Source: Clostridia bacterium (GTDB taxonomy: Bacteria > Bacillota > Clostridia > Christensenellales > CAG-314). From it: a stretch of DNA of 64,000 nt. Below are positions 4,601 to 58,388 of this stretch, in pieces. The stretch is from contig CAAGHL010000070.1 in assembly GCA_900769665.1 (NCBI GenBank), forward strand, positions 13,620 to 77,619, read 5' to 3'. Positions within the stretch are counted from its first letter, which is position 1. Each line of letters starts with the position of its first letter. The notes below the pieces were generated by a model, which worked only from the letters and a program-made list of their open reading frames with translations, was not told the origin of the DNA and did no database searches. The position numbers and the translations under genes are program-made.

Positions 4601-4652
4601 ATCGTCAACGTCAGGTTGCGTCAGGTTGCGACAGGTTGCGGCAGGTTGCGCC
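4601..4652 (-). repeat. Tandem 10-mer array (4 x NCAGGTTGCG), variant of the GCAACCTAACGTTGACG repeat family
   Basis: 4611-4650 reads tcaggttgcg tcaggttgcg acaggttgcg gcaggttgcg, preceded by atcgtcaacg. The terminal unit cgcaacctgacgttgacga (minus strand) differs by 1 nt from the unit at 49693-49711 and 56654-56672. Confidence 0.8.
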
Positions 4653-14045: not shown

Positions 14046-14225
14046 CACTACCCCGACCACCCACCCCTCAAGGTCAAAGAACTTTATTATAAAGTAGCAT
14101 GCGAGGCGCGACCTACTTTGTCGCAACGTGGCAATCTCGCGGAAGCACCATTGTCGCAAGGTTGCTTTCCAGCAGATCCCCACGTCGCGACAAGTACAGT
14201 CGCTCCTCGGGATGACACTTTATTG
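14046..14225 (+). repeat. A-type intergenic repeat, full-length copy (A1)
   Basis: The left part (cactaccccga ccaccc..ctcaaggtcaaagaactttatta) matches 16491-16500 plus 16659-16712. The right part, 14126-14216, is the reverse complement of 18910-18994. Confidence 0.8.
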
Positions 14226-18810: not shown

Positions 18811-18909
18811 ATGAAATATTCTCCTTAAGATTACGCCACTATGAATCCATATGTGGTCTTACTAATACTCTGTTTTGCACATTTGCCTCAAATTGACACA
18901 TTGAATTAT

Positions 18910-18994
18910 GTCATCCCGAGGAGCGACATTTGCGACGTGGGGATCTGCTGGAAAGCACCCTTATTACAATGGCGCTTCCGCGAGATTGCCACGT
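18910..18994 (-). repeat. A-type repeat, inverted partial copy (A3)
   Basis: The reverse complement matches 14126-14216 (about 78 of 85 aligned bases, one 6-nt indel). Confidence 0.8.
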
Positions 18995-19170
18995 CAGCCG
19001 ACGTTCACGGCTTCCTCGCAATGACAATCACACGCAACGCAACCATTTTGTCGGCGTCTTTGCCATAATGTCATTACTTACAAATGTACACGTTTTTTGC
19101 ATACGCATCGATTTTTCGCACGCAAAAATACCCTTCACCAAGGTATGGTGCGGGTTACAGGAAGAATATT

Positions 19171-45720: not shown

Positions 45721-47058
45721 TCACTCTTGCACCAACGGGAATAGCATATCCACCATAAACATATTGTCCTCGGTGCGCATTACCAAGTCGCCGTTATACC
45801 TCTCGCATATCACACGCATACTTTTGCAACCGTAGCCGTGGTAAAAGTCGTTATCCTTTGTGGTAAGCGGCAATCCGTCGCGGAAAACGAGCTCGGACTC
45901 GAACCAGTTTTCGATATGCACCGACAATATCTTACCTTTCGCCACCACTTTGAAACGAATAAAGCGTTTTTCGAGGTCGTCCAGTTTCATCACGGCGTCA
46001 ATGGCGTTGTCTATTGCGTTACCGAACAGCGAGTAGATGTCCTCTATCCTCATAAAGGACAGCTGCTTGCCGTCAGCCATTACGGTCAAACGAATATTAT
46101 TCTTTTGGCAAATGAGGGATTTTTCCGTCAAGATTATGTCCAACGCTTCATTGTCCGTTTTGACAACCGAGTCGTAGATGTTGATTGCGTTTTCTATTTC
46201 TCGTATAGTTTCGCTACTGACCTTGTCGTTTTGTCCGATAAGTCGTATTTGATGTTTCAGATCGTGACACTTTAGGTTAATAAGGTCTATGTTTTCCTTG
46301 GATATTGCATACTGTTCCTGTTCCTGCGTAAGCAGTCTGTTTACCACGTCCAACTCGTCGTGCATTTTTTTGTTGGACAGCAACCCGAACTGCAAACTGA
46401 CGGCAAACACACAACACAAAATGTTATATATTGCCGCGACAATAAGGTTTACCTTGTCGTAGTTGTTGTCGCTGTTGTACACCACTACGGAGTTTAGGAT
46501 GATGTCTATCAACAGTATTGCAATGGACAACAACAAGAAGAACACGTTGTTTACCTTCAAGTCCTCATGCTTGCCTATCCTACGGGAGAACAACACATAC
46601 ATCAACACATACACTATCGAGTAGCTGTCCATGTAGAAGCAAATTGTAAAAATGTTTATCTTGGGTGCGACGGCGTAACCGTACACTCCCATAGCCATGC
46701 CTTCGCCAAAGCCCGTGGCGGTAAGCAACAAATTGTTTATTTCGTATGCCAAGTGTTGTGTAGTATAACCGGCAATTGCGCAAAACAAGATATTGACCCA
46801 CGGCTCGTCGTAGCAAATTTTGAATGACAACGTAGCAATTGTAAACAACGCCAAAAACATCAGCGAAGTATACCACGCATTGTAAAAGAAAATAGGAAAC
46901 AAAAACGCGCTTACAAAGCACACCGCCATTGCGGCAACAAACCGCAACGCAAAGTGAGTGCGATGGCGAAGATTGCGAGTAAACAAACAACACGCCACGA
47001 TAAGCTCCGCCATGAATACCAGCTTGTACCAAAACAAAGTAGTAAACTCAAACATCAT
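45721..47058 (-). CDS. GHKL sensor histidine kinase, AgrC/VirS-like (polytopic N-terminus)
   Basis: 6-7 TM segments, then CHDLKHQ, NAIDNAIDA and HGYGCKSM ATPase motifs. ATGA overlap with the response-regulator gene. Confidence 0.85.
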   Translation of the reverse strand: MMFEFTTLFWYKLVFMAELIVACCLFTRNLRHRTHFALRFVAAMAVCFVSAFLFPIFFYNAWYTSLMFLALFTIATLSFKICYDEPWVNILFCAIAGYTTQHLAYEINNLLLTATGFGEGMAMGVYGYAVAPKINIFTICFYMDSYSIVYVLMYVLFSRRIGKHEDLKVNNVFFLLLSIAILLIDIILNSVVVYNSDNNYDKVNLIVAAIYNILCCVFAVSLQFGLLSNKKMHDELDVVNRLLTQEQEQYAISKENIDLINLKCHDLKHQIRLIGQNDKVSSETIREIENAINIYDSVVKTDNEALDIILTEKSLICQKNNIRLTVMADGKQLSFMRIEDIYSLFGNAIDNAIDAVMKLDDLEKRFIRFKVVAKGKILSVHIENWFESELVFRDGLPLTTKDNDFYHGYGCKSMRVICERYNGDLVMRTEDNMFMVDMLFPLVQE

Positions 47059-47759
47059 CTTTCTCCCAAAAACTCGTTGAGTCTGCGTACGAATTCCTTG
47101 CGCTTTTGTCTGCTAAGAGTCAGCGTTTGGTCACCCACTTGCACTTCAAAACCATCCACGGCGTACACGTAGCGTAGGTTGATTAAATACCAACTGTTGC
47201 CGCGCGCAAAGTATTTCAACTCTTTGCGGCTTTCTAACTCTTTCAGCGTACCCCAACTTTCTATGTCGCCCTCGTCGGTATGAAATACAAGTCTGTGTCC
47301 GCAAACCTCGATGTAGGAAACGGCGTTTGCCGACACGCGCCGAATGCCGTTGACTGTTTTTATGGTCAACTCGCAAGTTTTGGTTGCCACAATTGCGTGC
47401 ATAATGCGGTTGAGCATAGAGGAAAAAGCGTAATACGTAATAGGTTTGACAATGAAGTCGGCGGCACCAACCGAGTAGCCTTTTGCAGCAAACTGTTGCA
47501 TGTTGGTGACAAACACTATGGTCACAAGCTGATCAAGCTCTCGCAACTTGGCGGAGATTTCCATGCCGTTGCTGTCGGGTAACTCGATGTCCATAAACAC
47601 GATGTCGACATCCGACTTGTAATTGGACAAAAAGGATTCGCCGTCGGTGTAGACGGTAATGTTGAACAAAACGTTGTTTTTCTCGGAATATTTCTTCAAA
47701 AACTCTTTCAGCTTGTCCGCCGCGGCGGTTTCGTCTTCAACAATCGAAACACAAATCAT
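47055..47759 (-). CDS. LytTR-family response regulator
   Basis: Receiver domain (VSIVEDE...DIVFMDIELPD...) plus a C-terminal LytTR DNA-binding domain (ISYIEVCGHRLVFHT...). Confidence 0.9.
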   Translation of the reverse strand: MICVSIVEDETAAADKLKEFLKKYSEKNNVLFNITVYTDGESFLSNYKSDVDIVFMDIELPDSNGMEISAKLRELDQLVTIVFVTNMQQFAAKGYSVGAADFIVKPITYYAFSSMLNRIMHAIVATKTCELTIKTVNGIRRVSANAVSYIEVCGHRLVFHTDEGDIESWGTLKELESRKELKYFARGNSWYLINLRYVYAVDGFEVQVGDQTLTLSRQKRKEFVRRLNEFLGER

Positions 47760-47841: not shown

Positions 47842-47987
47842 TACCCATTTTTGCGCCATTGCTTATCTTGTAATCCACATTACTTAATTAGCATTTTTAT
47901 ATGCAATAAAATATATAAACAAAGAATACTTTGTCGTGCGCCACTGTAAATTTGACCTCTTTTGTAACATAATAATGTATATAAGCC

Positions 47988-48016
47988 TTGACAAACAGGT
48001 AAAAGTGTAGTAAAAT
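47988..48016 (+). promoter_or_regulatory. Sigma-A promoter for the Y-family polymerase operon
   Basis: TTGACA (47988-47993), 17 nt, TAAAAT (48011-48016). Confidence 0.65.
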
Positions 48017-48025
48017 ATTATAGTA

Positions 48026-48050: not shown

Positions 48051-49316
48051 ATGAAGACAAGAACCTATTTTTGCATCGATATGAAGAGTTTTTTCGCTTC
48101 CGTCGAGTGCGCCGAACGACAACTTAATCCGCTTACCACCAAGTTGGTGGTTGCCGACCCCTCACGCGGAAAAGGGGCAATTTGCCTTGCCGTTTCGCCC
48201 AAGCTTAAGCAAATGGGCGTAAAAAACCGTTGCCGATTGTTTGAGATACCCGACAACATCGACTACATCATCGCCAAGCAGCAAATGAAAAAGTACATTG
48301 CCTACTGCGCGGACATATACGACATCTACCTAGACTACGTCAGTCCCGACGACATACACGTGTACAGCATCGACGAGTCCTTCATCGACGCGACGGACTA
48401 CCTTGCGCTGTACAACATGACTGCCAAGCAGTTTGCCGTCAAGCTGACTGACGAAATCGCACGCCGAGTCCACATCCCTGCCACCGTCGGCATAGGTAGC
48501 AACCTGTATCTTGCCAAAATTGCCCTCGACATCACGGCAAAGCACGCCGAGGACCACATTGGCATACTGGACGAGCAAATCTACTGCGACACGCTGTGGC
48601 ACCACCGCCCCATCACCGACTTTTGGAACGTAGCCAAGGGCACTGCGGCGCGACTTGCCAACTACGGCATATTTGACATGCACGGCATTACGCAAATGCC
48701 CGAGCAACTGTTGCACAAGCTGTTTGGCAAAAACTACCGCATATTGCTCGACCACGCTTGGGGCAAGGAAAGTTGCACCATTGCCGACATCAAGGCGTAC
48801 AAAGCCAAGTCGCACTCGGTAAGCACGTCGCAAATACTGTTTTGCGACTACCCCACCGACAAGGCGCGCATAGTAATGGCGGAAATGGCGCTGACCATGT
48901 GCCAAGAAATGATGCGGCGCAAGGTAATTGCGCTAAACGTGGACATCGGCATCGGTTACAGCAAGGACGTAATACCCTTGACGGGCGGACACGCACGCAT
49001 GAGCCAAGCAACAAACGCCTACTCGCTGGTGAAAGACTACGTGTTGCGCTTGTTTGACCAAACCACCGTGCCCAACGTGCCGATACGGCGGCTGACAATA
49101 TCCTTTTCCAAGCTGTCCGACGAGGCGTGCCGCGGCTATGACATGTTTACCGACGAGGAAGCCGTCGAACGCGAGCTACGATTGGAACACACGGTGCTGG
49201 ACATCAAAAACAAATTCGGCAAAAACGCCATTTTGCGGGGCATCGACCTTGCCGACGGCGCAACAACCAAAATACGCAACAAACTTATAGGAGGACACAA
49301 CGGTGAGCTCGAATAA
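48051..49316 (+). CDS. Y-family DNA polymerase (UvrX/ImpB/DinB-like translesion polymerase)
   Basis: YFCIDMKSFFASVECAER, SIDESFID. Start trimmed to ATG 48051 behind GGAG. Confidence 0.9.
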   Translation: MKTRTYFCIDMKSFFASVECAERQLNPLTTKLVVADPSRGKGAICLAVSPKLKQMGVKNRCRLFEIPDNIDYIIAKQQMKKYIAYCADIYDIYLDYVSPDDIHVYSIDESFIDATDYLALYNMTAKQFAVKLTDEIARRVHIPATVGIGSNLYLAKIALDITAKHAEDHIGILDEQIYCDTLWHHRPITDFWNVAKGTAARLANYGIFDMHGITQMPEQLLHKLFGKNYRILLDHAWGKESCTIADIKAYKAKSHSVSTSQILFCDYPTDKARIVMAEMALTMCQEMMRRKVIALNVDIGIGYSKDVIPLTGGHARMSQATNAYSLVKDYVLRLFDQTTVPNVPIRRLTISFSKLSDEACRGYDMFTDEEAVERELRLEHTVLDIKNKFGKNAILRGIDLADGATTKIRNKLIGGHNGELE

Positions 49317-49674
49317 AAAAAGCGACGTAATATTTGAGGAGGAAGTAAACCGCGCGGCGCAATTTTTGCCCTTCGATGCGCTGAAAGGACTAAGCGAGGA
49401 ACTACGCAAGCGCGAGGAACGCCACTGCCGTGTGGAAAAGGTTGAGCTGTCGGAGGAGCAAGCGGCTGTCGTCAACAACGAGTTGTGCAAGTTGCAAGCA
49501 GGCGATGCCGTGCGCATACGCTTTTACTACCACGGGCACTACGTCACGTTGGACGGCGTGTTGACCAAGATTGTGCCGCAAATGCGCTACCTGACAATGG
49601 GTACGGCAAAAATTGGCTTTGACGACATATACGAAATAAAGCAAATCGACCCCTCAAGCGTCGACCCGACCTAA
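49303..49674 (+). CDS. YolD-like protein (accessory partner of Y-family polymerases)
   Basis: GTG start overlapping the polymerase stop, behind GGAGGA. FLPFDALKGL motif and size match YolD-like proteins as I recall them. Same gene order as yqjW-yqzH and uvrX-yolD. Confidence 0.65.
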   Translation: MSSNKKSDVIFEEEVNRAAQFLPFDALKGLSEELRKREERHCRVEKVELSEEQAAVVNNELCKLQAGDAVRIRFYYHGHYVTLDGVLTKIVPQMRYLTMGTAKIGFDDIYEIKQIDPSSVDPT

Positions 49675-49714
49675 CCCAACCTAACGTTGACGCAACCTAA
49701 CGTTGACGAGTAGG
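49668..49714 (+). repeat. Tandem 16-mer repeat (2 x CAACCTAACGTTGACG plus partial unit) starting 2 nt after the YolD-like stop
   Basis: 49677-49715 is identical to the reverse complement of 56650-56688. Followed by a G8 run (49713-49720). Confidence 0.85.
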
Positions 49715-49801
49715 GGGGGGTAAAGTGTTAAATTTACATCAAAACAAGGTATTTAGTTAAGCCTAACCCCCACTTCCACCACCGCAAAAACATACAAAAA
49801 C

Positions 49802-49837
49802 AAAAAATCCGCTACGCCAATACGTAACGGATTTTTG
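49802..49837. terminator. Bidirectional terminator between convergent genes
   Basis: A6, AATCCGCTACG, loop, CGTAACGGATT, T5. Confidence 0.7.
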
Positions 49838-49866
49838 CATACGTTGTTGTTTTTTGACGACAAACA

Positions 49867-50376
49867 CTACTCATCGTCCTCGTCATCGTCCTCATCTTCA
49901 TCGTCGTCTTCGCCGTCGCCATCCACATCGTCGAAGTCGTCGTCGAAATCGTCCGGGTAGTCGTCGGGATAGTCCTCGAGTTCGGTATCTTGGTTTTCCT
50001 CGTCCTCGAAGTCGTCGTCATCGTCTTCGTCGTCTTCCAACTCCTCAAGCGGAATGATGTCGTCTTCCCCGGGCACTTCGGTATCCTCGTCGTCGAGGTA
50101 GGTACGCCAGTCGTCGCTGTCCTCGTCGATGTCGTCGCTGATTTCCTGCGAAGCGCGCGCAAGGCAGTTTTCGCACATGTCTTCGTCCATGCCGATGTAT
50201 GCCGCCTTACAAGAGGGACACAACTTCAACGGTTCTTCCTCGTCGATGATGTCGTCGAGCAACATTATTTTGCTTTCCAAGCCAAGTTCCGACTTGCATA
50301 CGTCGCACATTTCCTCGTTTTCGGGGATATAATTCAGTTCGCAGCGCGGACATTTTTTATATTTAACCTTTCCCAT
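49867..50376 (-). CDS. Double zinc-ribbon protein with extreme poly-Asp/Glu C-terminal tail
   Basis: CPRC..CDVC and CPSC..CENC pairs in the first ~85 aa. The remainder is dominated by D/E and ends GEDDDEDEDDDEDDE. RBS AAGGTGA. Confidence 0.7.
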   Translation of the reverse strand: MGKVKYKKCPRCELNYIPENEEMCDVCKSELGLESKIMLLDDIIDEEEPLKLCPSCKAAYIGMDEDMCENCLARASQEISDDIDEDSDDWRTYLDDEDTEVPGEDDIIPLEELEDDEDDDDDFEDEENQDTELEDYPDDYPDDFDDDFDDVDGDGEDDDEDEDDDEDDE

Positions 50377-50609
50377 AATTCACCTTGTTGTAGTTAGTCG
50401 CTTTATTGCGCGCGTATAATTTAGCATTATTCTAGCCAAATGTAAACTGTTTTTTGCCAATTTCTTCAAACAAATATGATAATTTTGTCAAAAAACATTA
50501 CAAACGTCACCGTTTCGGCTCAAAATGCCCTATTTTGCTTGTTTTGCCAACGTTTTTGTGCAATCAGCGCACGTTGTCTGTACGGCAAAACACACGCCTG
50601 TCGGACAAG

Positions 50610-50945
50610 TTATTTTGCGCCGTCGTCGCACTCTCCGTTGTTGCCGCAGTTGCCCTTGTCGGTAGCCGTATTACCGTTGTCGGCATTGTTGCCTTGCGAA
50701 TTGCGTATCTTGGTCAAACGCACGATGTGCACCACCACTAGGGCGCAATTCATCACCCACACCGAAGCCGACTTGATGCACAGTCCGTACACCACAAACA
50801 CCGCCGCGCCGACAATGTTGACAATGCGTATGGCACGTTCGTCCTTCATCAAAAAGCTGACAAGCACCAACGCCGCCGCCAACAGCCCGAGCCACTCCAT
50901 ACCGTTTGTCCAATCGAACAAATTGTTTTGTATCCAATCCGCCAT
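50610..50945 (-). CDS. Small membrane protein, YgjV-like (tentative)
   Basis: ORF 50610..51182 trimmed to ATG 50943-50945 behind GGGAGGA. Two to three TM segments, and an Asn/Gly-rich tail. Confidence 0.5.
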   Translation of the reverse strand: MADWIQNNLFDWTNGMEWLGLLAAALVLVSFLMKDERAIRIVNIVGAAVFVVYGLCIKSASVWVMNCALVVVHIVRLTKIRNSQGNNADNGNTATDKGNCGNNGECDDGAK

Positions 50946-51441
50946 TACAGAAATCCTCCCGTTTGTACACCCGTGCGCTAACACGCCGTGATGTTGTTTG
51001 CAAGGTCGACACGACCTTAGGAAAATTTCCCTCCACCGGGCAACTTTTGTTGCCAAACCGCCGACATAAATGTTTCCAAGTTTCCCGTCACCACCGCCAC
51101 CAATCGTTTTGGCGTGCGACTTACTGCCAACTAGGCGTTTAACCATCGTTTGCTTACTACAAAAGCAACCGCCGGCTAGCACACCTAAGATACATTACAT
51201 GCGTGCGGAAACACAGTATACCAAATAGTCGCAAAAAATGCAACAGAATTTGTATATTTTATTGCGGTTGCCACAAGCAATTTTTCGCGCCATGCCTCAA
51301 CCCACGATTTTTCGCCGAAATAACACAAAAGGCGGCTTCGGTTGTGCCGCCTTTCTTACATATTTCTTTTTCAGTTTTCTTTCCACCACTCCACTCCCCA
51401 CGCCCTACAAAAACAAAAATACCGCAACAAACCCAAAGCAT

Positions 51442-51470
51442 TTGACACGACGGGCGTAAGTTGGTACAAT
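51442..51470 (+). promoter_or_regulatory. Sigma-A promoter candidate for udk
   Basis: TTGACA, 17 nt, TACAAT, with TGg. Confidence 0.6.
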
Positions 51471-51501
51471 TGTCGTGTAATTACTTCACGCGGCGGAGGG
51501 C

Positions 51502-52131
51502 ATGATGAATACCATTGTAATAGGCATTGCCGGCGGTACCGGTTCCGGCAAAACAACCGTGGCAAAAAAGATTTTTCAGGCATTTGACAAAAGCGCGGTG
51601 ATACTTTCCCACGACTACTACTACAAGGAGTATCCCAACCTCACGCTCGAGGAAAAACGCAAGCTAAACTACGACCACCCCGACAGCCTAGACACCGACT
51701 TGTTGGTGGAACACATCAAGGCATTGAAGAGCGGACAATCCATCATGCACCCCACGTACGACTTCTCCACACACAGCCGCAACAAGGAGTGGTCTAAGAT
51801 GAACAGCGCCGAGCTGATAATTGTGGAAGGTATACTGATATACACCAGCAAGGAATTGTGCGACCTGTGCGACATCAAGCTGTTTGTGGATACCGACGCC
51901 GACGTGCGCTTTATACGCCGCTTGCGCCGTGACGTCAACCGCCGCGGACGTAGCATGGAATCGGTAATCAATCAGTACCTGTCCACCGTAAAGCCCATGC
52001 ACGAGCAATTTGTAGAGCCGTCCAAGGCAAAAGCCGACCTAATCATCCCCGAGGGCGGACACAACACCATTGCCGTGGGCATGATCGTGGACGCAATACG
52101 CAAAATGATGAAGAAAGAGCAAGACCAATGA
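51502..52131 (+). CDS. udk: Uridine kinase
   Basis: P-loop GIAGGTGSGKTT. YDHPDSLD and RRLRRD motifs. Confidence 0.95.
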   Translation: MMNTIVIGIAGGTGSGKTTVAKKIFQAFDKSAVILSHDYYYKEYPNLTLEEKRKLNYDHPDSLDTDLLVEHIKALKSGQSIMHPTYDFSTHSRNKEWSKMNSAELIIVEGILIYTSKELCDLCDIKLFVDTDADVRFIRRLRRDVNRRGRSMESVINQYLSTVKPMHEQFVEPSKAKADLIIPEGGHNTIAVGMIVDAIRKMMKKEQDQ

Positions 52132-52931
52132 CAAAGATAGATTTGCAAGGCATAAGCAACGCACGCGACCTTGGCGGCATTGCAACGCCCTACGGCGCCG
52201 TCGCCGCAGGTAGACTGATACGCAGCGGAGAACACAGCCGCATGACGGACAGCGACAGCAATGCGCTAAGTGCGCTTGGTTTGGCGCGAGTGATAGACCT
52301 ACGCACCGACAAGGAAATGGCAAACGTCCCCGACCGCAAAATAGAGGGCGTAACATACACGCAAATACCCATTATACCGCAAACAACATTCGGCATCAGC
52401 TACGAGTCCTCCGACGGACCCACCATTGCCGCCCACCTACAAGCAGGCATAGAGCGCATGCGCCAACGCGGCGAAACCCCCGAGGAACACATGTGCGAGC
52501 TATACAGCCGCTTTGCCACAAACGAGTTTTGCAAGCAACACATAGGGCAGTTTGTTCAAACGCTTGCCCACTACCCCACACAAGGCGCAACGCTGTGGCA
52601 TTGCAGTGCAGGCAAGGACCGTGTAGGCGTTTGTACCGCCACGTTGCTACACTGTTTAGGCGCAACTAAAGAGCAAATAATTGCCGACTACATGTTGACC
52701 AACACGCAAACGGAAACTTCGCGCGAGTCGGTGATTGCCAAGGTAACGCCACACGTGACCGCCGACAAACTGAACCTCGTCAAGCAAATGTTGCGCGTCG
52801 AGCCGCACTACATCGGTACGTTTTTTGCCGCCGTCGACAATTTGTACGGCAGTATGGACGGCTTTGTTGCGCAAATAGGCGTAACTGCCCAAGACATTGC
52901 CCTACTGCGTGCCGAGTATTTGGTAAAATAG
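52128..52931 (+). CDS. Tyrosine-protein phosphatase (Y_phosphatase3-like)
   Basis: CX5R active site HCSAGKDRVG. ATGA overlap with udk. Confidence 0.8.
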   Translation: MTKIDLQGISNARDLGGIATPYGAVAAGRLIRSGEHSRMTDSDSNALSALGLARVIDLRTDKEMANVPDRKIEGVTYTQIPIIPQTTFGISYESSDGPTIAAHLQAGIERMRQRGETPEEHMCELYSRFATNEFCKQHIGQFVQTLAHYPTQGATLWHCSAGKDRVGVCTATLLHCLGATKEQIIADYMLTNTQTETSRESVIAKVTPHVTADKLNLVKQMLRVEPHYIGTFFAAVDNLYGSMDGFVAQIGVTAQDIALLRAEYLVK

Positions 52932-52946
52932 CATAAAAAAAAACAA

Positions 52947-52990
52947 AAAAGGTTGTTGCAAGGAACCACTCCTATAACAACCTTTTGTTG
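52947..52990. terminator. Bidirectional terminator between convergent genes
   Basis: AAAAGGTTGTT, loop, AACAACCTTTT, flanked by A-rich and T-rich tracts. Confidence 0.7.
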
Positions 52991-53091
52991 TTTGAAATTT
53001 TAATTTTTGGCAAACCGCCCCGACAAGGCAAAAAAAACAGTTGCAATGGCAAATCCGTTGCAACTGTCAAAACTATATTGCGTTTTTTATT

Positions 53092-53616
53092 TTATCTTGC
53101 GGCAAAAGCGTCCCAAAAACTAATCTTGCCACGGCGGAAGAAACTGCTCATCTCGGCAAAAACTTCCATGTCGTCCTTGGCGTTGGGGTTGACGGCAATA
53201 AACATTGCGCCGTTCTTTTCGGCAATTTCCTTAACTTTTGCGGCGAAATCATCGTCGGAACCGACCGTTTGCAACACCGCAACTTTTGCGCTTGCGTAGT
53301 CCTTGCAAATCTTTGCAATCAACTCGTCGTAATCTTGGAAAAACTCTTCGTTGGCGGTTTCGTTTTCGCCGAAGGAAATCAAAATGTTGGACGGAGCGAG
53401 ATATTTCAAGCAGTCGTCGACAACGGATTTCGCTTGCTTTACAGTCAGGTTTTCCAAACTACGATTGTACACCGCGTAGTCGCTTACACGCTTTTGCATC
53501 AGTGTGTAGAAGGGAAAGTCGCTAAGATAATCGGAACCGAACACAACGGCTTCGCCCTTGACAGCAAGTTTGTTGAGTACCTTGTACTTTTTTGCCCTTT
53601 CTTCAATCGTTTCCAT
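53092..53616 (-). CDS. Hypothetical protein, SGNH/GDSL-hydrolase-like fold suspected
   Basis: ATG 53614-53616 behind GGAGG. VVFGSDYL and ISFGENE blocks loosely resemble SGNH blocks I and III, but no clear catalytic Ser/His. Confidence 0.45.
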   Translation of the reverse strand: METIEERAKKYKVLNKLAVKGEAVVFGSDYLSDFPFYTLMQKRVSDYAVYNRSLENLTVKQAKSVVDDCLKYLAPSNILISFGENETANEEFFQDYDELIAKICKDYASAKVAVLQTVGSDDDFAAKVKEIAEKNGAMFIAVNPNAKDDMEVFAEMSSFFRRGKISFWDAFAAR

Positions 53617-53617
53617 A

Positions 53618-54010
53618 TTATGCCTCCGAAGCATGCGCTTTTTTGTTGCATTTATTTGTGCGTTTTACGTCGCCCTTGACGGGTGCTACACTGCCGTTGG
53701 TTTGCACGTCGGCAACGACAAAGTCGTCGTCTTGCACTGCATGTGCGTGCTTTTCGTTGTGCTTGTTGATGATAAATACCACAAGGTCCATTGTAACTAC
53801 AACCAAGTTGAGCACGTACAACCACAACACGTAGGTGATGTGACCCGACAAAACTTTGCTTGTAATACCGCAAATGTATCCGATGATTATCACTATCGTA
53901 AATATCATGCTTTTGCCCGCAGTGGACTTGGACTTGATACTTTTTACTACGGAAATCGGCCACGAAATACCGAAACATACCAACATCATTACTTCAAACA
54001 ATTGAGCCAT
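53618..54010 (-). CDS. Small membrane protein (PQ-loop/SemiSWEET-like, tentative)
   Basis: ATG 54008-54010 behind AAAGGAGA. Three TM segments, then a charged tail. Confidence 0.5.
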   Translation of the reverse strand: MAQLFEVMMLVCFGISWPISVVKSIKSKSTAGKSMIFTIVIIIGYICGITSKVLSGHITYVLWLYVLNLVVVTMDLVVFIINKHNEKHAHAVQDDDFVVADVQTNGSVAPVKGDVKRTNKCNKKAHASEA

Positions 54011-54202
54011 AACTAATTCTCCTTTCAAACAAGTACCATTATACGCTTGACAAACGATAATGTATAATATATATTTTTTATGTAATCAATAATTTTCAAG
54101 CATATATTCGAAAGCGTCCGAAAACGGCAAACAAGGCGTCGATGTAAGCAATTAAAGGTAACTACATCACCTAAAACTTTATTATATAAGGAGAAAAGGC
54201 AA

Positions 54203-55066
54203 ATGGAAATCAACAGCCTGCGATACTTCTACGAAGCGGCAAAGTGCCAACACATCACAAATGCCGCCGACAACCTACATATTGCGCAACCTGCGCTGAC
54301 CAAATCGATAAAGTCGCTGGAAGAGGAACTCGGCGTAAAACTCTTTTACAAATACGGGCGCGGCGTAAGGCTGACGGAATACGGCGAGTTTTTGAAAGAC
54401 AAAATAGAGCCGATAATAAAGCAACTGGACGTATTGCCCGTTGCAATAAAAAACTTTACCGACCTAAACGAAAATACCGTTTCGATAAACGTGCTTGCAG
54501 CCTCCACCGTCACCACCGACATAATAATAAAGTTCAAAAAAACTCACCCCAACGTGATGTTTAAGATGACGCGCAAGGAGGAGGAAACCCACGCCGACAT
54601 CGAAATACTGACCAACGCAAAAACGCACGACCACATCATCGACGTAAAAAAAGAAGCGATAATCGAGGAAAAAATTTACGTTGCCGTGCCGATAGACAGT
54701 CCGCAAGCGCAAAATGACGAAATAAACCTGTCGGAATTGCGCAATTGCGAGTTTATTGCGCTGTCGGGTTCGCGGCGTTTCCGTCCGCTGTGCGACGCCT
54801 ACTGCGAGTACGCCGGGTTCAAGCCGCAAGTGACGTTTGAAAGCGACTCCCTAATCGCCGTCAAAAACCTTATTGTGGCAGGGGTCGGAGTGGCATTTTG
54901 GCCGGAGTTTTCTTGGGGCAAAATCACCCACGAAAACATCAAGTTGCTAAATATCGTCAACCCCGATTGCAAGCGCGAAATAATACTGTACCTTACGGGC
55001 AACAAACAGTCCAAAATAAGCGAGGAGTTTTTCGACTTCTTGGTGTCGGAGCTTAAACAACGCTGA
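54203..55066 (+). CDS. LysR-family transcriptional regulator
   Basis: N-terminal wHTH (LRYFYEAAKCQHITNAADNLHIAQPALTKSIKSLEEELG) plus a substrate-binding domain. Divergent from the 53618..54010 gene. Confidence 0.9.
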   Translation: MEINSLRYFYEAAKCQHITNAADNLHIAQPALTKSIKSLEEELGVKLFYKYGRGVRLTEYGEFLKDKIEPIIKQLDVLPVAIKNFTDLNENTVSINVLAASTVTTDIIIKFKKTHPNVMFKMTRKEEETHADIEILTNAKTHDHIIDVKKEAIIEEKIYVAVPIDSPQAQNDEINLSELRNCEFIALSGSRRFRPLCDAYCEYAGFKPQVTFESDSLIAVKNLIVAGVGVAFWPEFSWGKITHENIKLLNIVNPDCKREIILYLTGNKQSKISEEFFDFLVSELKQR

Positions 55067-55087
55067 CGTACTAATATAATAAAGGAA

Positions 55088-55126
55088 AGCGGGTCTGCAA
55101 TGCGCTAGGTTGCACGCCCGCTTTTG
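55088..55126 (+). terminator. Terminator after the LysR gene
   Basis: AGCGGG, loop, CCCGCT, then TTTTG. Confidence 0.65.
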
Positions 55127-55138
55127 TATTGACGAAAC

Positions 55139-55181
55139 AAAAAAAAAACGGCGAAGCAAGCAATCAAGCTCGTTTCGCCGT
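55139..55181 (-). terminator. Terminator after the 55211..56356 gene
   Basis: Minus strand: ACGGCGAA, loop, TTCGCCGT, then T10. Confidence 0.8.
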
Positions 55182-55210
55182 AAGCGTCTATTTAGTTACG
55201 CGCCAAACAA

Positions 55211-56356
55211 TTAGTCGTTGGATTGTTGGTCGTCGTTGTCGCCGTAGTGAACTTTGCCGCCGATTGTGGTAGCGTCTTCTTGCTTGGGTTTGATGCAAAG
55301 CAACACAACGATGCCCACTGCCGCCAAACCTGCGATTACGTACAGCACGATTTGCCAAACCTTAGCGGTATCTTGTTCCTCTTCGGTGGCTTTCTTGGCG
55401 TTTACGTACAGGTTGAGGACAAACTCGGGCGCATTGCCGTCCTTGTCTACGCCTGTGTAGCCGTATTGGTCCTTGAAGCTGTACTTAACACGGTACTTGT
55501 AGTCCTTGCTGTTGCTGCTGACGTCGTCGTTGCCTGCCAAAATACCGCTTGTGGAAACAAAGTCGCTGTACTTGTCGTCAAGCACTTTGGTGTCCTTGCT
55601 GCTGTCGTAGATAGCCGTCCAGTTGCCGTCAATCATCTTTTCGATTACGTAGTACACGGTGATGTAGCTGCTGCTGGTACCCTTGCCGTCGTCGGTCATG
55701 GTGAACAACAACGTTGTGGGGATGGAGTAACGCGTACCAACGGTGATACCCTTCTTGGTGTAATCGTCGTATCTGGTTTGGTTGAGGGTGATGATGGGGT
55801 TGTCTACGTCTTGTGCGTACAAGCTGACAAGTTGGCTCTTGGCTACGATATCCTTGGTGTAGTCGACAGAGTAAGTTGTCTTAGCTTCTTCGCCTTCTTT
55901 TTCTTCCGTAGTTGCATGGGGACGAACAACTACAAAGCGGAACGACCACCAACCGACGGAGTTGACGTCGATGGTTTCTTCGGCTGCTGCATAGCCTGCC
56001 TTCTTATCCTTGTCTTCGGCAACTTCACCGCGGTCACTGCCCGGTTTGAAGTATTGAATTTCCACCTTGTCCGACTCTTCTTTAAGTTTACCGTCTGCGG
56101 AAACAAAGTTTGCGCCGCCAAACAATGCGGTGATGTCGGCTTCGGTAGCCAACCAAGCGGGTACTTTAATGTCACCGAGATTCAACGAGAAGTTGCTTGC
56201 AAGCACCTTCAACGTTTCGTCCGCAGCGATTTTCTCGTTGAGTGCGGTTTGGTTGACGGTAACGGGTGCCGGATCCTCAGCAAATGCCATTGCCGAAACG
56301 CCGAGCATTCCGACAAGAATTGTCAATGCCAAAATCAAACTGATATACTTTTTCAC
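55211..56356 (-). CDS. Hypothetical secreted protein with C-terminal membrane anchor
   Basis: Start set to GTG 56354-56356 behind GGAGGAA. Signal peptide ...MLGVSAMAFA. C-terminal TM IVLYVIAGLAAVGIVVLLCI. Confidence 0.65.
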   Translation of the reverse strand: MKKYISLILALTILVGMLGVSAMAFAEDPAPVTVNQTALNEKIAADETLKVLASNFSLNLGDIKVPAWLATEADITALFGGANFVSADGKLKEESDKVEIQYFKPGSDRGEVAEDKDKKAGYAAAEETIDVNSVGWWSFRFVVVRPHATTEEKEGEEAKTTYSVDYTKDIVAKSQLVSLYAQDVDNPIITLNQTRYDDYTKKGITVGTRYSIPTTLLFTMTDDGKGTSSSYITVYYVIEKMIDGNWTAIYDSSKDTKVLDDKYSDFVSTSGILAGNDDVSSNSKDYKYRVKYSFKDQYGYTGVDKDGNAPEFVLNLYVNAKKATEEEQDTAKVWQIVLYVIAGLAAVGIVVLLCIKPKQEDATTIGGKVHYGDNDDQQSND

Positions 56357-56435
56357 GATATTCCTCCGAAGGACAACAAATTGTCCATCTGTGTTTTGGG
56401 TAGGAAAAGGGTAGACTTTCCCCACATACTGTAAT

Positions 56436-56464
56436 ATTTTACAATTTATTTGCCGACTTGTCAA
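56436..56464 (-). promoter_or_regulatory. Sigma-A promoter candidate for the 55211..56356 gene
   Basis: Minus strand: TTGACA, 17 nt, TAAAAT. Confidence 0.55.
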
Positions 56465-56649
56465 CGGTTTGCCGAAAAATAGTACCGAATATATGCGCAA
56501 ACCGATGATTTTTAGTGCGAAACAAGCAAAAAAGCTAAGCGTTGCGACGATAATTGCAAACATAGCGCACTATCACTGCCACGTAGACAATTGCAAATAG
56601 CGCCAATCAACAATAAAGCGTCATCCCGAAAAGCAAATACCACCGACAA

Positions 56650-56690
56650 TCCTACTCGTCAACGTTAGGTTGCGTCAACGTTAGGTTGCC
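56650..56690 (-). repeat. Tandem 16-mer repeat starting 2 nt after the RluA-family stop codon
   Basis: Minus strand reads TGA gg caacctaacgttgacg caacctaacgttgacg agtagg, identical to 49677-49715. Confidence 0.85.
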
Positions 56691-57470
56691 TCAGTCGAGG
56701 TTGTCGCCCGTTTGCGGTTGAAAGTACAGCGGTTCGCCGTCGTCCACGTCACTGTCGGAAAAGTTTTCCACGTGGCTCTTGATGTCAAAGCGTTTCCACG
56801 GCTCGCTGTCGGGCGGATAGGCAACAAACACCATGCGTTCCTTGGTGACGGGGTGCGTAAGCTCCAGCTTGTACGCCCACAATGCAAGGTTTTGTCCGCG
56901 CACGATGTTGCCGCCGTAGCGTGCGTCGCCGTACACGGGGCAGTTGATTGCGCTCATTTGCACGCGAATCTGGTGGCTACGTCCCGTGCCGAGTTGCACC
57001 TTGACAAGGCTCAAACGCTCGTCGGAGTCCAACACTTCGTAGCTTAACTCGGCTCGCTTTGCGTCGTGGTCGCCAAAGGTTGCCACGTACACCGTGTTGG
57101 TGAGGCTGTTCTTTTTGAGGTAATTGACAAGGGTGTCCTTGCGTTGCTTTGGCGTGCCGACAACCGTCGTGAGGTAGGTTTTGGTCATTTCTCCGTCGAC
57201 GATTTGCTTGCTAAGCCGCTCCGCCGCCTTGCTGTTTTTGGCAAACACCATCACGCCGCCCGTGGGACGATCCAATCTGTGCACAAGCCCGAGGTACACG
57301 TTGCCGGGTTTGTCGTACTTGTTTTTGATGTAGTCTTTCAGTAGCGTCAGCAAGTCAAGGTCGCCGCTGGCGTCGGCTTGACTGGGGATATTTTGCGGTT
57401 TGACGACCACAAGTATGCTGTTGTCTTCGTGAAGAACGGCAACGTCGTCCATTGTAAAGTTTCTGCTCAT
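56691..57470 (-). CDS. RluA-family pseudouridine synthase
   Basis: HRLDRPTGG catalytic motif. Start trimmed to ATG 57468-57470 behind GGAGAT. Confidence 0.85.
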   Translation of the reverse strand: MSRNFTMDDVAVLHEDNSILVVVKPQNIPSQADASGDLDLLTLLKDYIKNKYDKPGNVYLGLVHRLDRPTGGVMVFAKNSKAAERLSKQIVDGEMTKTYLTTVVGTPKQRKDTLVNYLKKNSLTNTVYVATFGDHDAKRAELSYEVLDSDERLSLVKVQLGTGRSHQIRVQMSAINCPVYGDARYGGNIVRGQNLALWAYKLELTHPVTKERMVFVAYPPDSEPWKRFDIKSHVENFSDSDVDDGEPLYFQPQTGDNLD

Positions 57471-57527: not shown

Positions 57528-58388
57528 TTAAAATGTCACTATGCCGCTTGCGCCGCAAGGCAACACTATGCCTTCGTCGGTGGGTAGGCACACTTCGTAG
57601 CTGTCCACCTTGCCGCGAGAAGCGTTGGGTACGCACCGCGTAAGTATGTTAGACAGCACAGTCGGTTGTAACCCCGTCGTGTAACTGTTGATAAGCACAA
57701 ACAACGGATTGTCCGACAGCACGCCTGCGCAAAGCTCCACGAAGTCGCAAATATCGTCCTCGATTTTCCAAATTTCGCCGTTGCTTCCGCGCCCGTAGCT
57801 GGGCGGATCCATGATGATTGCGTCGTAGCGACGTCCGCGGTTGATTTCCCTTTTGACAAACTTGCGGCAGTCGTCCACGATGTATCGCACGGGTTTGTCG
57901 GAAAGCCCTGACAACGCAACGTTTTCTCGACAGCGGTCCACCATGTTTTTGGCGGCGTCCACGTGACAAACGCTTGCGCCTGCGGACAAACACGCAACGG
58001 TTGCGCCGCCCGTGTAGGCAAACAGGTTGAGGACGTTTATCGGGCGGTTGGCTCCATGTATGAGGTCGATCATTGTCGCCCAGTTGGCGGCTTGCTCGGG
58101 GAAAAGTCCCGTATGCTTGAATCCCATCGGCTTGACGGCAAACGTTAGGTTGCGCCAACTTACGTGCCACTCGTCGGGGATGGGTTTGTTGTACTCCCAA
58201 TGTCCGCCGCCGCTACTGCTGCGTATGTACTTGGCGTCGGGGCGCACAATCTTGTCGAGCGGCTTCGCGGCATGCCAAATGACCTGCGGATCGGGACGAA
58301 GCAACACGACGTTGCCCCACCGCTCCAACTTTTCGCCGTCGCCCGTGGCAATTATTTGGTAATCTTTCCATTCGGTATTGATGTTCAT
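57528..58388 (-). CDS. Class I SAM-dependent (rRNA-type, RlmI/RlmK-like) methyltransferase
   Basis: LNLFAYTGG SAM-binding loop and DPPSYGRG motif. Confidence 0.8.
   Translation of the reverse strand: MNINTEWKDYQIIATGDGEKLERWGNVVLLRPDPQVIWHAAKPLDKIVRPDAKYIRSSSGGGHWEYNKPIPDEWHVSWRNLTFAVKPMGFKHTGLFPEQAANWATMIDLIHGANRPINVLNLFAYTGGATVACLSAGASVCHVDAAKNMVDRCRENVALSGLSDKPVRYIVDDCRKFVKREINRGRRYDAIIMDPPSYGRGSNGEIWKIEDDICDFVELCAGVLSDNPLFVLINSYTTGLQPTVLSNILTRCVPNASRGKVDSYEVCLPTDEGIVLPCGASGIVTF

What the first reader, a model, noticed from the sequence alone, without database searches (positions are those of the whole stretch)
49668..49720. Identical 39-nt tandem-16-mer element placed exactly 2 nt after the stop codons of two unrelated genes (site 1: YolD-like)
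After the YolD-like stop (TAA, 49672-49674) come cc and then caacctaacgttgacg caacctaacgttgacg agtagg. The same 39 nt, in the same orientation relative to the gene, follow the RluA-family stop at 56691-56693 (TGA, then gg). Each unit contains the AACGTT palindrome and can form a CAAC/GUUG mini-hairpin. Here the element is followed by a G8 run. Identical spacing to the stop codon at two loci is hard to explain by chance. It suggests either a 3'-end-targeting insertion element, a shared 3'-UTR RNA motif, or a protein-binding array.
Basis: seen in the sequence. Interest (0 to 1): 0.55.

Follow-up and report, generated by a model that had tools for sequence, protein, structure and literature searches.

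The report
Dispersed mini-hairpin repeat at gene ends
The two identical 39-base stretches are copies of a small repeated DNA element (a 16-base mini-hairpin that multiplies in tandem) scattered through the genome of one uncultured human-gut Clostridia species; it tends to sit at the ends of genes and sometimes supplies their stop codon, but it has no fixed spacing to stop codons and is an ordinary kind of bacterial "junk" repeat, although an undescribed one.

Summary
An identical 38-nt element (2 x CAACCTAACGTTGACG + AGTAGG) starts 2 nt after the YolD-like stop (+ strand) and 2 nt after the RluA stop (- strand). The fixed spacing is not a rule. Across strains both arrays vary in copy number (about 1.5-6 and 1-4 units). 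In some strains the YolD-like stop is the unit's own TAA. Across 33 site groups in human-gut contigs, the distance to the upstream stop runs from -8 to over 500 nt. The unit is a 4-bp hairpin with a constant CTAAC loop and strong stem covariation, usually followed by ACG-AGTAG. It occurs alone in unique sequence, and also as a module of 118-226-nt composite elements with terminal inverted repeats and a long central hairpin. Two such composites lie in this window. Sister species have empty sites after the same genes. The family was not found in phages, plasmids, Rfam, the literature searched, or 185,579 species-representative genomes. Two units plus AGTAG close all three sense reading frames, which explains why genes end at or next to it. 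In tandem-gene contexts the unit was always sense (11 of 11). I file it as a new REP/BOX-like interspersed repeat family. Its mobilising enzyme and any RNA-level role are unknown.

The parts
49667..49676 (+). 10-nt half-unit CGACCTAAcc that holds the YolD-like stop codon (TAA 49672-49674).
   Evidence: In strains L004, L007 and L010 the same position is a full unit, CGACCTAA|CGTTGACG. The sister species has AAATCTGA here and no array.
49677..49708 (+). Two tandem 16-nt units, CAACCTAACGTTGACG. Each is a 4-bp stem (CAAC/GTTG) with loop CTAAC and tail ACG.
   Evidence: Copy number is about 1.5-6 across strains. Stem covariation.
49709..49714 (+). Conserved terminal junction AGTAGG. Its TAG closes the third sense frame.
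   Evidence: About two thirds of the 33 site groups end in AGTAG. It is used as the stop codon in L067.
49713..49720 (+). G8 homopolymer that overlaps the junction.
   Evidence: It is polymorphic: G6-G9, or GGGCTAG, in other strains.
49803..49836 (.). Bidirectional intrinsic terminator shared by the YolD-like gene and the convergent acidic zinc-ribbon gene. It is not part of the element and bounds the 3' UTR that contains the array.
   Evidence: It is conserved in the sister species, where it lies about 35 nt after the stop.
56657..56688 (-). Two tandem 16-nt units, 2 nt (gg, 56689-56690) after the native RluA stop (56691-56693).
   Evidence: There are 1-4 units in other strains, and the stop is TGA or TAA. 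The RluA C-terminus ...DNLD is conserved in sister species, and their sites are empty.
56620..56656 (-). AGTAGG junction plus a short right arm that ends in a degenerate terminal-repeat motif (...TTTTCGGGATGAC).
   Evidence: Strains L003, L008 and L009 carry a longer right arm here, with the CAAGC-TTCG-GCTTG tetraloop hairpin and CTCCTCGGGATGAC.
4603..4650 (-). Related array of 4 x 10-nt CAACCTGNCG followed by TTGACG. It is intergenic and lies upstream of the cyclophilin gene.
   Evidence: It is not stop-adjacent (145 nt from the upstream stop).
18909..19026 (+). Complete composite element of the same family (TGTCATCCCGAGGA ... long hairpin ... TCCTCGCAATGACA) without the 16-mer module.
   Evidence: At the same locus other strains carry the 16-mer + AGTAGG module.
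14095..14217 (-). Second composite element: terminal repeat, long hairpin, then ...CGACAAAGTAGGTCG. The right end is approximate.
58141..58159 (-). 18/19 match to the unit junction inside the methyltransferase coding sequence. It is probably not an element copy and is unexplained.

Best explanation
The 38-nt string is two tandem copies of a 16-nt mini-hairpin unit plus the conserved junction AGTAG(G). The unit has the form N1N2AC-CTAAC-GTN2'N1'-ACG. It belongs to a lineage-specific family of small interspersed repeats in an uncultured human-gut Clostridia species.

Shown:
- The unit is dispersed over at least 33 chromosomal site groups.
- It occurs naked in unique sequence, and also as a module of 118-226-nt composite elements that have 14-nt terminal inverted repeats and a long central hairpin.
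- Its 4-bp stem covaries.
- Arrays differ in unit number and unit order between strains.
- Sister species have empty sites.
- Composite copies at one locus differ by whole modules, and the chromosome can diverge at the central hairpin.
- Two units plus AGTAG carry stop codons in all three sense frames: TAA/TGA, TAA/TGA and TAG.
- In different genes or alleles the unit's TAA or the junction's TAG is the actual stop codon (YolD-like, dut, L067).

Inferred:
- The family spread by non-autonomous transposition or copy-and-recombine events catalysed in trans by an enzyme not yet identified.
- Arrays grow and shrink by replication slippage or unequal exchange between the 16-nt units and their ACG microhomologies.
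- Insertions survive mainly in the 3' untranslated ends of transcription units. Because the element closes every frame, a hit within the last codons truncates the protein only slightly. This makes the element look 'placed' at stop codons.
- The equal 2-nt spacing at the two window sites is therefore a coincidence of two things: the array's own register at site 1 (TAA + 2 nt completes a 10-nt half-unit) and an insertion just behind a native stop at site 2.
For: - Sequence and chance.
- Copy-number variation at site 1 (about 1.5-6 units) and site 2 (1-4 units), and the stop inside the unit in L004, L007 and L010.
- Dispersal: 44 metagenome stretches, most of them human-gut contigs; 5 (L041, L046, L051, L053, L055) look like chance matches in unrelated GC-rich contigs. 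I counted at least 14 arrays on 10 contigs of one roughly 3x assembly. There are 33 site groups, 11 with both flanks unique.
- Composite architecture.
- Folding: the full element folds at -79 kcal/mol, z = -5.7.
- Stem covariation: 98.5 % of cells paired; 47 double-sided changes against 8.8 in shuffles, 0 of 500 shuffles as high; all slid registers collapse. Pair types are AU 32, GC 29, CG 10 and GU 10.
- Empty sites in sister species.
- Native RluA C-terminus. Lineage-specific YolD-like tail.
- Element-supplied stops: L067 (TAG of AGTAG); dut in L040 and L052 (TAA of the unit).
- Module exchange and a rearrangement breakpoint.
- Context: 11 tandem-sense, 0 tandem-antisense, 0 divergent and 9 convergent site groups; distances -8 to 542 nt.
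- No hit in Rfam, phages or plasmids, viral contigs, papers or species-representative genomes.
Against: - No mobilising enzyme was found. The window holds no transposase. No Y1 transposase was found in the 600 kb held (the queries were recalled from memory, so this is weak).
- Complete elements show no target-site duplication.
- No filled-versus-empty polymorphism was seen within the species. Mobility is inferred only from dispersal and from the empty sites in sister species.
- Four of about 20 co-oriented sites lie within 15 nt of a stop or overlap it. This is somewhat more than uniform placement would give (my rough estimate is about 1.5), so some real preference for stop-proximal positions cannot be excluded.
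- The all-sense orientation in tandem contexts suggests selection or function on the transcript, which a purely 'selfish DNA' account does not predict.
- ORF contexts come from a crude ORF caller (at least 100 aa), not from curated gene models.
- The census is biased towards units that match the search pattern.
Confidence: 0.7

Rival explanations
1. A functional 3'-UTR RNA element. The array is transcribed with the upstream gene, and its hairpins act on the mRNA. They might protect the 3' end from exonucleases, or, like REP sequences close to stop codons in E. coli, slow terminating ribosomes and lower expression. This could hold in addition to the repeat-family explanation.
For: - The unit is sense to the flanking genes in 11 of 11 tandem contexts, and never lies between divergent genes.
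- Site 1 lies on the YolD-like side of the bidirectional terminator, and so inside that transcript.
- It follows the gene's strand even though that gene is on the lagging strand by GC skew.
- G-U wobble pairs (10) outnumber A-C mismatches (4) on the sense strand.
- Several copies abut stop codons.
- From my own knowledge (Liang, Rudd and Deutscher, Mol Cell 2015; not verified here): REPs within about 15 nt of a stop reduce translation through ribosome stalling and trans-translation.
Against: - The hairpin has only 4 bp. The two-unit element folds weakly (-6.1 kcal/mol as DNA, z = -2.4; single units are about -2 to -5 kcal/mol, not different from shuffles).
- Copy number and distance to the stop vary freely between strains and sites.
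- Sister species do without it.
- No Rfam family matches.
- No expression data are available.
Confidence: 0.2
2. A REP/REPIN-type element mobilised as single-stranded DNA by a HUH/Y1 (RAYT- or IS200/IS605-like) transposase. The enzyme would recognise the mini-hairpin and the neighbouring GTAG. Tandem arrays would arise by repeated insertion next to an existing copy. This concerns the spreading mechanism within the main explanation.
For: - The hairpin is conserved by covariation rather than by sequence, with an invariant loop and an invariant neighbouring GTAG-containing motif.
- Composite elements are built of two inverted halves around a central hairpin, like REPINs (REPIN concept in PMC3116915).
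- There is no target-site duplication, as expected for Y1 transposition.
- The orientation bias fits strand-specific insertion.
Against: - No Y1 transposase was detected in the 600 kb held (weak).
- GTAG lies 3' of the hairpin, separated from it by ACGA. It is not directly 5' of it as in classical REPs.
- The stem has 4 bp, far shorter than known REP or IS200-end hairpins.
- Composite elements start with TG and end with CA and carry 14-nt terminal inverted repeats, which is more typical of DDE-transposon-derived MITEs.
- As far as I know, RAYT-REPIN systems have been described mainly in Proteobacteria (PMC5581495 describes RAYT families; I did not read it for taxonomic range).
Confidence: 0.15
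3. The two inverted 38-mers are the terminal inverted repeats of a roughly 7-kb transposon or an invertible segment (49677-56688).
For: They are perfect inverted repeats that bracket 6.9 kb (I1). Tandem sub-repeats at transposon ends are known as transposase-binding sites (Tn7, Mu, IS21; my own knowledge).
Against: - The interval holds housekeeping-type genes and no transposase or recombinase.
- The same gene order exists in a sister species that has no arrays (L060).
- The same unit occurs at more than 30 other sites singly.
- Copy numbers at the two ends vary independently.
- No strain shows the segment inverted or missing as a unit.
Confidence: 0.02
4. A double-stranded DNA-binding array (iteron- or operator-like) for a regulator or nucleoid protein. 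The TTGACG in each unit might act as a -35-like element.
For: Direct repeats with a 16-nt or 10-nt period resemble iterons or phased binding sites. Each unit contains TTGACG. One weak promoter-like match lies inside site 2 (TTGACG-18-TAGGAT, 9/12).
Against: - The stem positions covary (CA/TG, CG/CG, GC/GC, CC/GG), so the TTGACG hexamer itself is not conserved (GTCGACG, GTGCACG, GTGGACG).
- Copy number is unconstrained.
- The real promoter of the downstream gene is separate and conserved in sister species that lack the array.
- Site 1 faces a convergent gene, so it has nothing to drive.
Confidence: 0.05

Closest known systems
BOX elements of Streptococcus pneumoniae and S. suis (boxA-(boxB)n-boxC)
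   Same: - Small composite interspersed repeats with an internal module present in a variable tandem number.
- The ends pair into a long stem.
- Enriched downstream of genes and between convergent genes.
- They modify CDS ends and can create ORFs.
- Neither a target duplication nor an empty site could be established.
- Copy number differs between strains.

Source: PMC3049150, read.
   Different: - No sequence relationship is evident.
- The tandem module here is 16 nt, against about 45 nt for boxB (my own knowledge), and is itself a covarying mini-hairpin.
- The module also occurs on its own, outside any composite element (11 of 33 site groups).
- The host is a gut Clostridia MAG lineage.
REP / BIME / REPIN elements and their RAYT transposases (Enterobacteria, Pseudomonas, Stenotrophomonas)
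   Same: - Short extragenic hairpin-forming repeats with a conserved GTAG-containing motif beside the stem.
- They occur singly, in inverted pairs around a spacer (REPIN-like composites) and in clusters whose copy number varies between strains.
- They lie at the 3' ends of transcription units.

Sources: PMC3116915 and PMC3337134 for REPINs (abstracts only); BIME-2 copy-number variation from my own knowledge.
   Different: - The stem has only 4 bp.
- GTAG lies 3' of the hairpin behind ACGA, not directly 5' of it.
- No RAYT was found (weak).
- The composites carry TG...CA terminal inverted repeats.
MITEs such as Correia elements (Neisseria), RUP (pneumococcus) and bcr1 (Bacillus cereus group)
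   Same: The composite elements here are 118-226 nt, have 14-nt terminal inverted repeats, fold into one long hairpin and are non-coding and multi-copy. General MITE definition as quoted in PMC3049150.
   Different: - No target-site duplication.
- No autonomous IS with matching ends was found.
- Not AT-rich.
- The feature flagged in the finding (the 16-mer array) is an internal or free-standing module, not the element's terminus.
Rickettsia palindromic elements (RPEs), which insert into coding sequences
   Same: The repeats become part of ORFs and alter protein termini. Here this is seen in the YolD-like tails ...QPNVDE* and ...DPT*, and in the dut tails ...STT* and ...RSPRRTT*.
   Different: RPEs insert in frame and are translated through (my own knowledge). 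This element terminates translation, because it carries stops in all three frames.

Membership tests
Variable-number tandem repeat (minisatellite) | Head-to-tail copies of one unit | tested here: met
   TRF finds period 16, 2.0 copies, 100 % at 49677-49708, and period 16, 2.3 copies at 56657-56693.
Variable-number tandem repeat (minisatellite) | Copy number differs between strains at the same locus | tested here: met
   Site 1 has about 1.5-6 units in 10 strain loci. Site 2 has 1-4 units.
Small interspersed repeat family (REP/BIME/BOX/MITE in the broad sense) | Many copies at unrelated, mostly intergenic sites of one genome | tested here: met
   33 site groups, 11 with both flanks unique. I counted at least 14 arrays on 10 contigs of one assembly. 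There are 5 family members in this 64-kb window.
Small interspersed repeat family (REP/BIME/BOX/MITE in the broad sense) | Secondary-structure potential maintained by selection | tested here: met
   Stem covariation with 0 of 500 shuffles as high. The full element has z = -5.7.
Small interspersed repeat family (REP/BIME/BOX/MITE in the broad sense) | Absent from orthologous sites of related species (i.e. inserted) | tested here: met
   Empty sites after RluA in L060-L063 and after the YolD-like gene in L064-L066.
REP/REPIN-RAYT | Imperfect palindrome of about 20-40 nt with GTAG directly 5' of the stem | tested here: not met
   The hairpin is 13 nt (4-bp stem). GTAG lies 3' of it, after ACGA.
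REP/REPIN-RAYT | Inverted doublets forming a larger hairpin (REPIN) | tested here: inconclusive
   Some composites carry two inverted 16-mers around the central hairpin (L017, L018). Most carry one or none.
REP/REPIN-RAYT | A single-copy RAYT (Y1/HUH) gene flanked by the repeats | tested here: inconclusive
   No hit by tblastn in the 600 kb held, using queries recalled from memory. The whole genome was not available.
MITE (DDE-transposon derived) | Terminal inverted repeats | tested here: met
   TGTCATYSCGAGGA ... TCCTCGSRATGACA on 10 complete elements. This holds for the composite elements, not for the 38-mer itself.
MITE (DDE-transposon derived) | Target-site duplication | tested here: not met
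   No shared direct repeat flanks the 10 complete elements.
MITE (DDE-transposon derived) | Autonomous IS with matching ends in the same host | tested here: inconclusive
   None was found in the 600 kb held. The one candidate pair (L052) proved to be chance matches in coding sequence.
BOX elements | Sequence similarity to boxA, boxB or boxC | not tested
The resemblance is architectural only.
Intrinsic (Rho-independent) terminator | G+C-rich stem followed by a T run | tested here: not met
   The scan finds only the separate bidirectional terminator at 49803-49836 near site 1. At site 2 it gives one marginal G-T-containing match.
Transposon or invertible-segment ends | The repeats bracket a mobile unit that encodes its recombinase and is present, absent or inverted as a block | tested here: not met
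   No recombinase lies between the arms. A sister species has the same gene order without the repeats. No strain shows the segment inverted.

The most novel reading that the evidence does not exclude
The roughly 21-nt mini-module (13-nt covarying hairpin + ACG + AGTAG) is itself an autonomous target or substrate of a so-far unknown strand-specific enzyme. It inserts, in sense orientation, at the extreme 3' ends of transcription units, can multiply in place, and carries stops in all three frames. It would then be a portable 'gene-end cassette' that rewrites C-termini and 3' UTRs. This would be the smallest mobile unit described in bacteria and the first REP-like system in gut Clostridia, possibly with an RNA-level role in termination or mRNA stability.
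Probability: 0.1. Interest if true: 0.7.

Novelty: new member of a known kind. Interest (0 to 1): 0.3.

Why it matters
On the evidence here this is an undescribed but ordinary class of object: a lineage-specific small interspersed repeat in an uncultured gut Clostridia species.

Practical value:
- It explains a striking coincidence without invoking a new signal.
- It marks hypervariable loci usable for strain typing in metagenomes.
- It marks places where short-read assemblies break and where strains rearrange (L001, L068, L074).
- It shows how such repeats reshape protein C-termini by bringing their own stop codons.

It would become more interesting if the sense-only orientation and the stop-proximal cases turn out to reflect targeting or an RNA function, or if a dedicated enzyme for so small a hairpin is found.

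Tried and rejected
1. Transposon or invertible-segment ends. Rejected: there is no recombinase, a sister species has the same gene order without the repeats, and no strain shows an inversion.
2. My own idea that the RluA stop is a degenerate half-unit. Rejected: the ...DNLD* terminus is conserved in orthologues at 76-89 % identity.
3. The array as promoter of the downstream surface-protein gene. Rejected: the TTGACA-17-TAAAAT promoter lies about 190 nt further on and is conserved in sister species without the array.
4. The array as an intrinsic terminator. Not supported.
5. A candidate autonomous element in L052. These were chance matches to the terminal repeat inside coding sequence.
6. A known RNA family. 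There were no Rfam hits at gathering or permissive thresholds; the only weak hits were unrelated plastid 3'-UTR models elsewhere in L018.
7. Phage or plasmid origin. No match.
8. Literature string search. Only unrelated human primer hits.
9. Species-representative genome scan. Only 5 isolated matches in unrelated taxa, so neither the source species nor a wider distribution could be established that way.
10. A search for a filled-versus-empty polymorphism at the 18909 locus to obtain a target duplication. All strains were filled, with different modules.
11. Organism name. I could resolve it only to 'Clostridia bacterium' MAGs, through sister-species protein names. SpoIIE in the window fits a spore-forming Firmicute.
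Full report
**1. Observation**

The sequence is as described. On the + strand the YolD-like ORF (49303-49674; Pfam YolD) ends in TAA at 49672-49674. Then come cc, two exact copies of CAACCTAACGTTGACG (49677-49708), AGTAGG (49709-49714) and a G8 run (49713-49720).

On the - strand the RluA-family ORF (Pfam PseudoU_synth_2) ends in TGA at 56693-56691. Then come gg, the same two units (56688-56657) and AGTAGG (56656-56651).

A 22-nt probe across the unit junction is expected 0.00 times by chance and is found at both sites. The shared string is 38 nt.

Because the copies lie on opposite strands, they form an inverted repeat around 6.9 kb.

**2. It is not a pair of transposon ends**

The interval holds these genes, with no recombinase:
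- an acidic double-zinc-ribbon protein;
- a YgjV-like membrane protein;
- uridine kinase;
- a tyrosine phosphatase;
- two small proteins of unknown function;
- a LysR regulator;
- a surface protein.

A sister species (RluA 88 % identical) has the same gene order without any repeat. None of eleven strain loci shows the segment inverted.

**3. The arrays vary in copy number, and the 2-nt spacing is not a rule**

Ten strain loci were fetched through the identical YolD-like protein.

- At site 1 they show about 1.5 to 6 units, with mixed unit variants (CAAC...GTTG, CGAC...GTCG, ...GTTGGAG).
- In L004, L007 and L010 the stop TAA is the TAA of a complete first unit (CGACCTAA|CGTTGACG).
- In the window allele the stop sits in a 10-nt half-unit, CGACCTAAcc.
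- Site 2 has 1-4 units, always after 'gg', behind a stop that is TGA or TAA.
- The neighbouring G run varies from G6 to G9, or reads GGGCTAG.

**4. The unit is dispersed**

A degenerate pattern (a unit followed by another unit or by AGTAG) gave these results:

| Collection | Result |
|---|---|
| 185,579 species-representative genomes | 5 isolated matches in unrelated taxa |
| Viral contigs | none |
| Metagenome contigs | 44 stretches, most from human-gut assemblies |

Five of the 44 metagenome stretches look like chance matches in unrelated GC-rich contigs and were set aside.

One roughly 3x assembly (ERZ780157) alone gives, by my count, at least 14 arrays on 10 contigs. Several contigs end at an array, as expected for a repeat that breaks short-read assembly.

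Grouping by flanks gives 33 site groups. In 11 of them both flanks are unique, so the mini-module itself is the repeat. About two thirds of the groups end in AGTAG.

**5. The unit is also a module of larger composite elements**

In many loci the unit lies inside 118-226-nt elements with this layout:
- bounded by TGTCATYSCGAGGA ... TCCTCGSRATGACA;
- a long imperfect central hairpin (GTGGCAATCTCGCGGAAGCGCC ... GGTGCTTTCCAGCAGATTGCCAC);
- in one arm type, a CAAGC-TTCG-GCTTG tetraloop hairpin.

A full element folds into one long stem (-79 kcal/mol, z = -5.7).

The window holds two such composites without the 16-mer, at 18909-19026 and about 14095-14217.

At the 18909 locus every strain examined is filled, but with different modules:
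- 118 nt without the 16-mer (window, L069, L070);
- 185 nt with the 16-mer + AGTAGG arm (L071, L073, L075);
- a GCAC-type 16-mer on the other side (L072);
- in L068 and L074 the chromosome diverges at the central hairpin.

At site 2 the strains carry either a long or a short right arm. L001 has a different neighbourhood altogether, with a further array behind the secG terminator.

So copies exchange modules and act as recombination breakpoints.

**6. Structure**

Across 86 distinct unit rows the stem N1N2AC/GTN2'N1' is paired in 98.5 % of cells. There are 47 double-sided changes against 8.8 in shuffles (0 of 500 shuffles as high), and every slid register collapses.

| Pair (alignment columns) | Pair types |
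|---|---|
| Outer pair (columns 9/21) | CG 78, GC 8 |
| Second pair (columns 10/20) | AU 32, GC 29, CG 10, GU 10, other 5 |

The loop CTAAC and the tail ACG are near-invariant.

Among units not forced by the search pattern, 14 of 17 are fully Watson-Crick.

The mini-hairpin is real.

Thermodynamically it is weak on its own.

**7. Relation to gene ends**

Sister species have empty sites.

- After RluA there is unrelated sequence leading to the conserved promoter of the next gene. In the window that promoter is at 56464-56436.
- After the YolD-like gene, the shared bidirectional terminator follows the stop by about 35 nt. In the window the terminator is at 49803-49836.

The RluA terminus ...DNLD* is native.

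The YolD-like tail is 6-8 residues longer than in distant homologues. Its last 8 nt are unit-like (CGACCTAA, against AAATCTGA in the sister species).

In L067 the YolD-like ORF reads through a unit and stops at the TAG of AGTAG (...IQPNVDE*).

A dUTPase gene (Pfam dUTPase) ends at the unit's TAA in two different configurations, in L040 and L052. A mazF-like toxin gene ends 14 nt before an array.

Read directly from the sequence, the 38-mer has stops in all three sense frames:
- TAA at position 6 and TGA at position 12 (frame 3);
- TAA at position 22 and TGA at position 28 (frame 1);
- TAG at position 35 (frame 2).

Any ORF that runs into it therefore ends at once.

Over all site groups the distance from a co-oriented upstream stop runs from -8 to 542 nt. 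The context tally is below (crude ORF calls):

| Context | Site groups |
|---|---|
| Tandem genes, unit in sense | 11 |
| Tandem genes, unit antisense | 0 |
| Convergent genes | 9 |
| Divergent genes | 0 |

Site 1 follows its gene's strand although that gene is on the lagging strand by GC skew.

**8. Interpretation**

The best-supported reading is a new, lineage-restricted family of small interspersed repeats. Its 16-nt mini-hairpin module can stand alone, multiply in tandem by slippage, and be swapped among composite copies.

Insertions persist at the 3' ends of transcription units. Because the module closes all frames, genes end in it or right next to it.

The identical 2-nt spacing at the two window sites is a coincidence. 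At site 1 it reflects the array's own register, and there it depends on the allele. At site 2 it reflects an insertion just behind a native stop.

Three things remain open:
- What moves the family. No transposase was found in the window. No Y1 enzyme was found in the 600 kb held. There is no target duplication.
- Why the unit is always sense.
- Whether there is any RNA-level effect.

**9. Comparison with known systems**

- Architecturally the closest match is the pneumococcal BOX element. It is a composite repeat with a variable tandem inner module, it is enriched downstream of genes, it modifies CDS ends, and no target duplication could be established (PMC3049150).
- In size and logic the mini-module resembles REP/REPIN sequences (PMC3116915, PMC3337134). 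It fails their defining anatomy: GTAG is on the other side and the stem has 4 bp. No RAYT was found.
- The composites resemble MITEs but lack target duplications and a known parent IS.
- No Rfam family, phage or plasmid record or paper contains the element.

**10. Verdict**

- The 'fixed distance to the stop codon' is not a feature of the element.
- The interpretation as an inserted, 3'-end-associated element with a mini-hairpin is partly right.
- Novelty: a new member of a known kind.
- Interest: modest (0.3). There is a small chance (about 0.1) that the sense-only, stop-proximal behaviour reflects a real targeting or RNA mechanism worth more.

Noticed in passing
window 4603-4650 (- strand): A related array with a 10-nt period (CAACCTGCCG CAACCTGTCG CAACCTGACG CAACCTGACG, then TTGACG). 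It lies between a membrane-protein gene and the cyclophilin gene, and ends in ATTAT instead of AGTAG.
   Followed up: partly
window 18909-19026 (+) and about 14095-14217 (-): Two composite elements of the same family (terminal inverted repeats plus a long hairpin) that lack the 16-mer. At the 18909 locus the strains differ by whole modules, and in L068 and L074 the chromosome diverges at the central hairpin.
   Followed up: yes
window 58141-58159 (- strand, methyltransferase CDS): GTTGGCGCAACCTAACGTT matches the unit junction at 18 of 19 positions. The peptide WRNLTF is conserved in sister species, but their codons differ, so the match consists of synonymous choices. It could be short-patch conversion from the array 1.45 kb away, or coincidence.
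   Followed up: partly
window 49713-49720: The G8 run next to the array is a polymorphic homopolymer. Other strains have G6-G9 or GGGCTAG.
   Followed up: partly
L001-L010 (strain loci around window 39000-59500): Gene content between the two arrays differs among strains. The LysR gene and two small genes are missing in L004, L007 and L010. L002 and L010 carry an extra 796-801-aa gene, and L007 carries two extra genes. L001 has iPGM-secG-RNase R instead of RluA next to the surface-protein gene.
   Followed up: partly
window 45721-47759 and L001-L010: The LytTR response regulator and its histidine kinase upstream of the polymerase/YolD-like operon are intact in the window and in L005. They are shortened or split in L002, L003, L006, L008 and L009, and absent in L001, L004, L007 and L010.
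   Followed up: no
window 47983-48025 and 56427-56469: The promoter regions of the Y-family polymerase operon and of the surface-protein gene are 72 % alike over 43 nt. Both read TTGACA-N17-TAAAAT followed by ATTAYAGTA.
   Followed up: no
window 1-64000: The whole 64-kb window has no Rfam match at gathering score. There is not even a T-box leader in front of the isoleucyl-tRNA synthetase gene (59104-62226, - strand).
   Followed up: no
L040 about 3640-3672; L052 9446-9480; L067 2463-2483: A dUTPase gene (in two allelic forms) takes its stop codon from the unit's TAA. A divergent YolD-like gene (L067) takes its last codons and its stop from the unit and the TAG of AGTAG.
   Followed up: yes
window 49867-50376 (- strand): The convergent neighbour encodes a double-zinc-ribbon protein with a long, repetitive Asp/Glu-rich C-terminal tail. 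Its DNA gives several overlapping 3-, 6-, 9-, 12- and 27-nt tandem-repeat calls.
   Followed up: no
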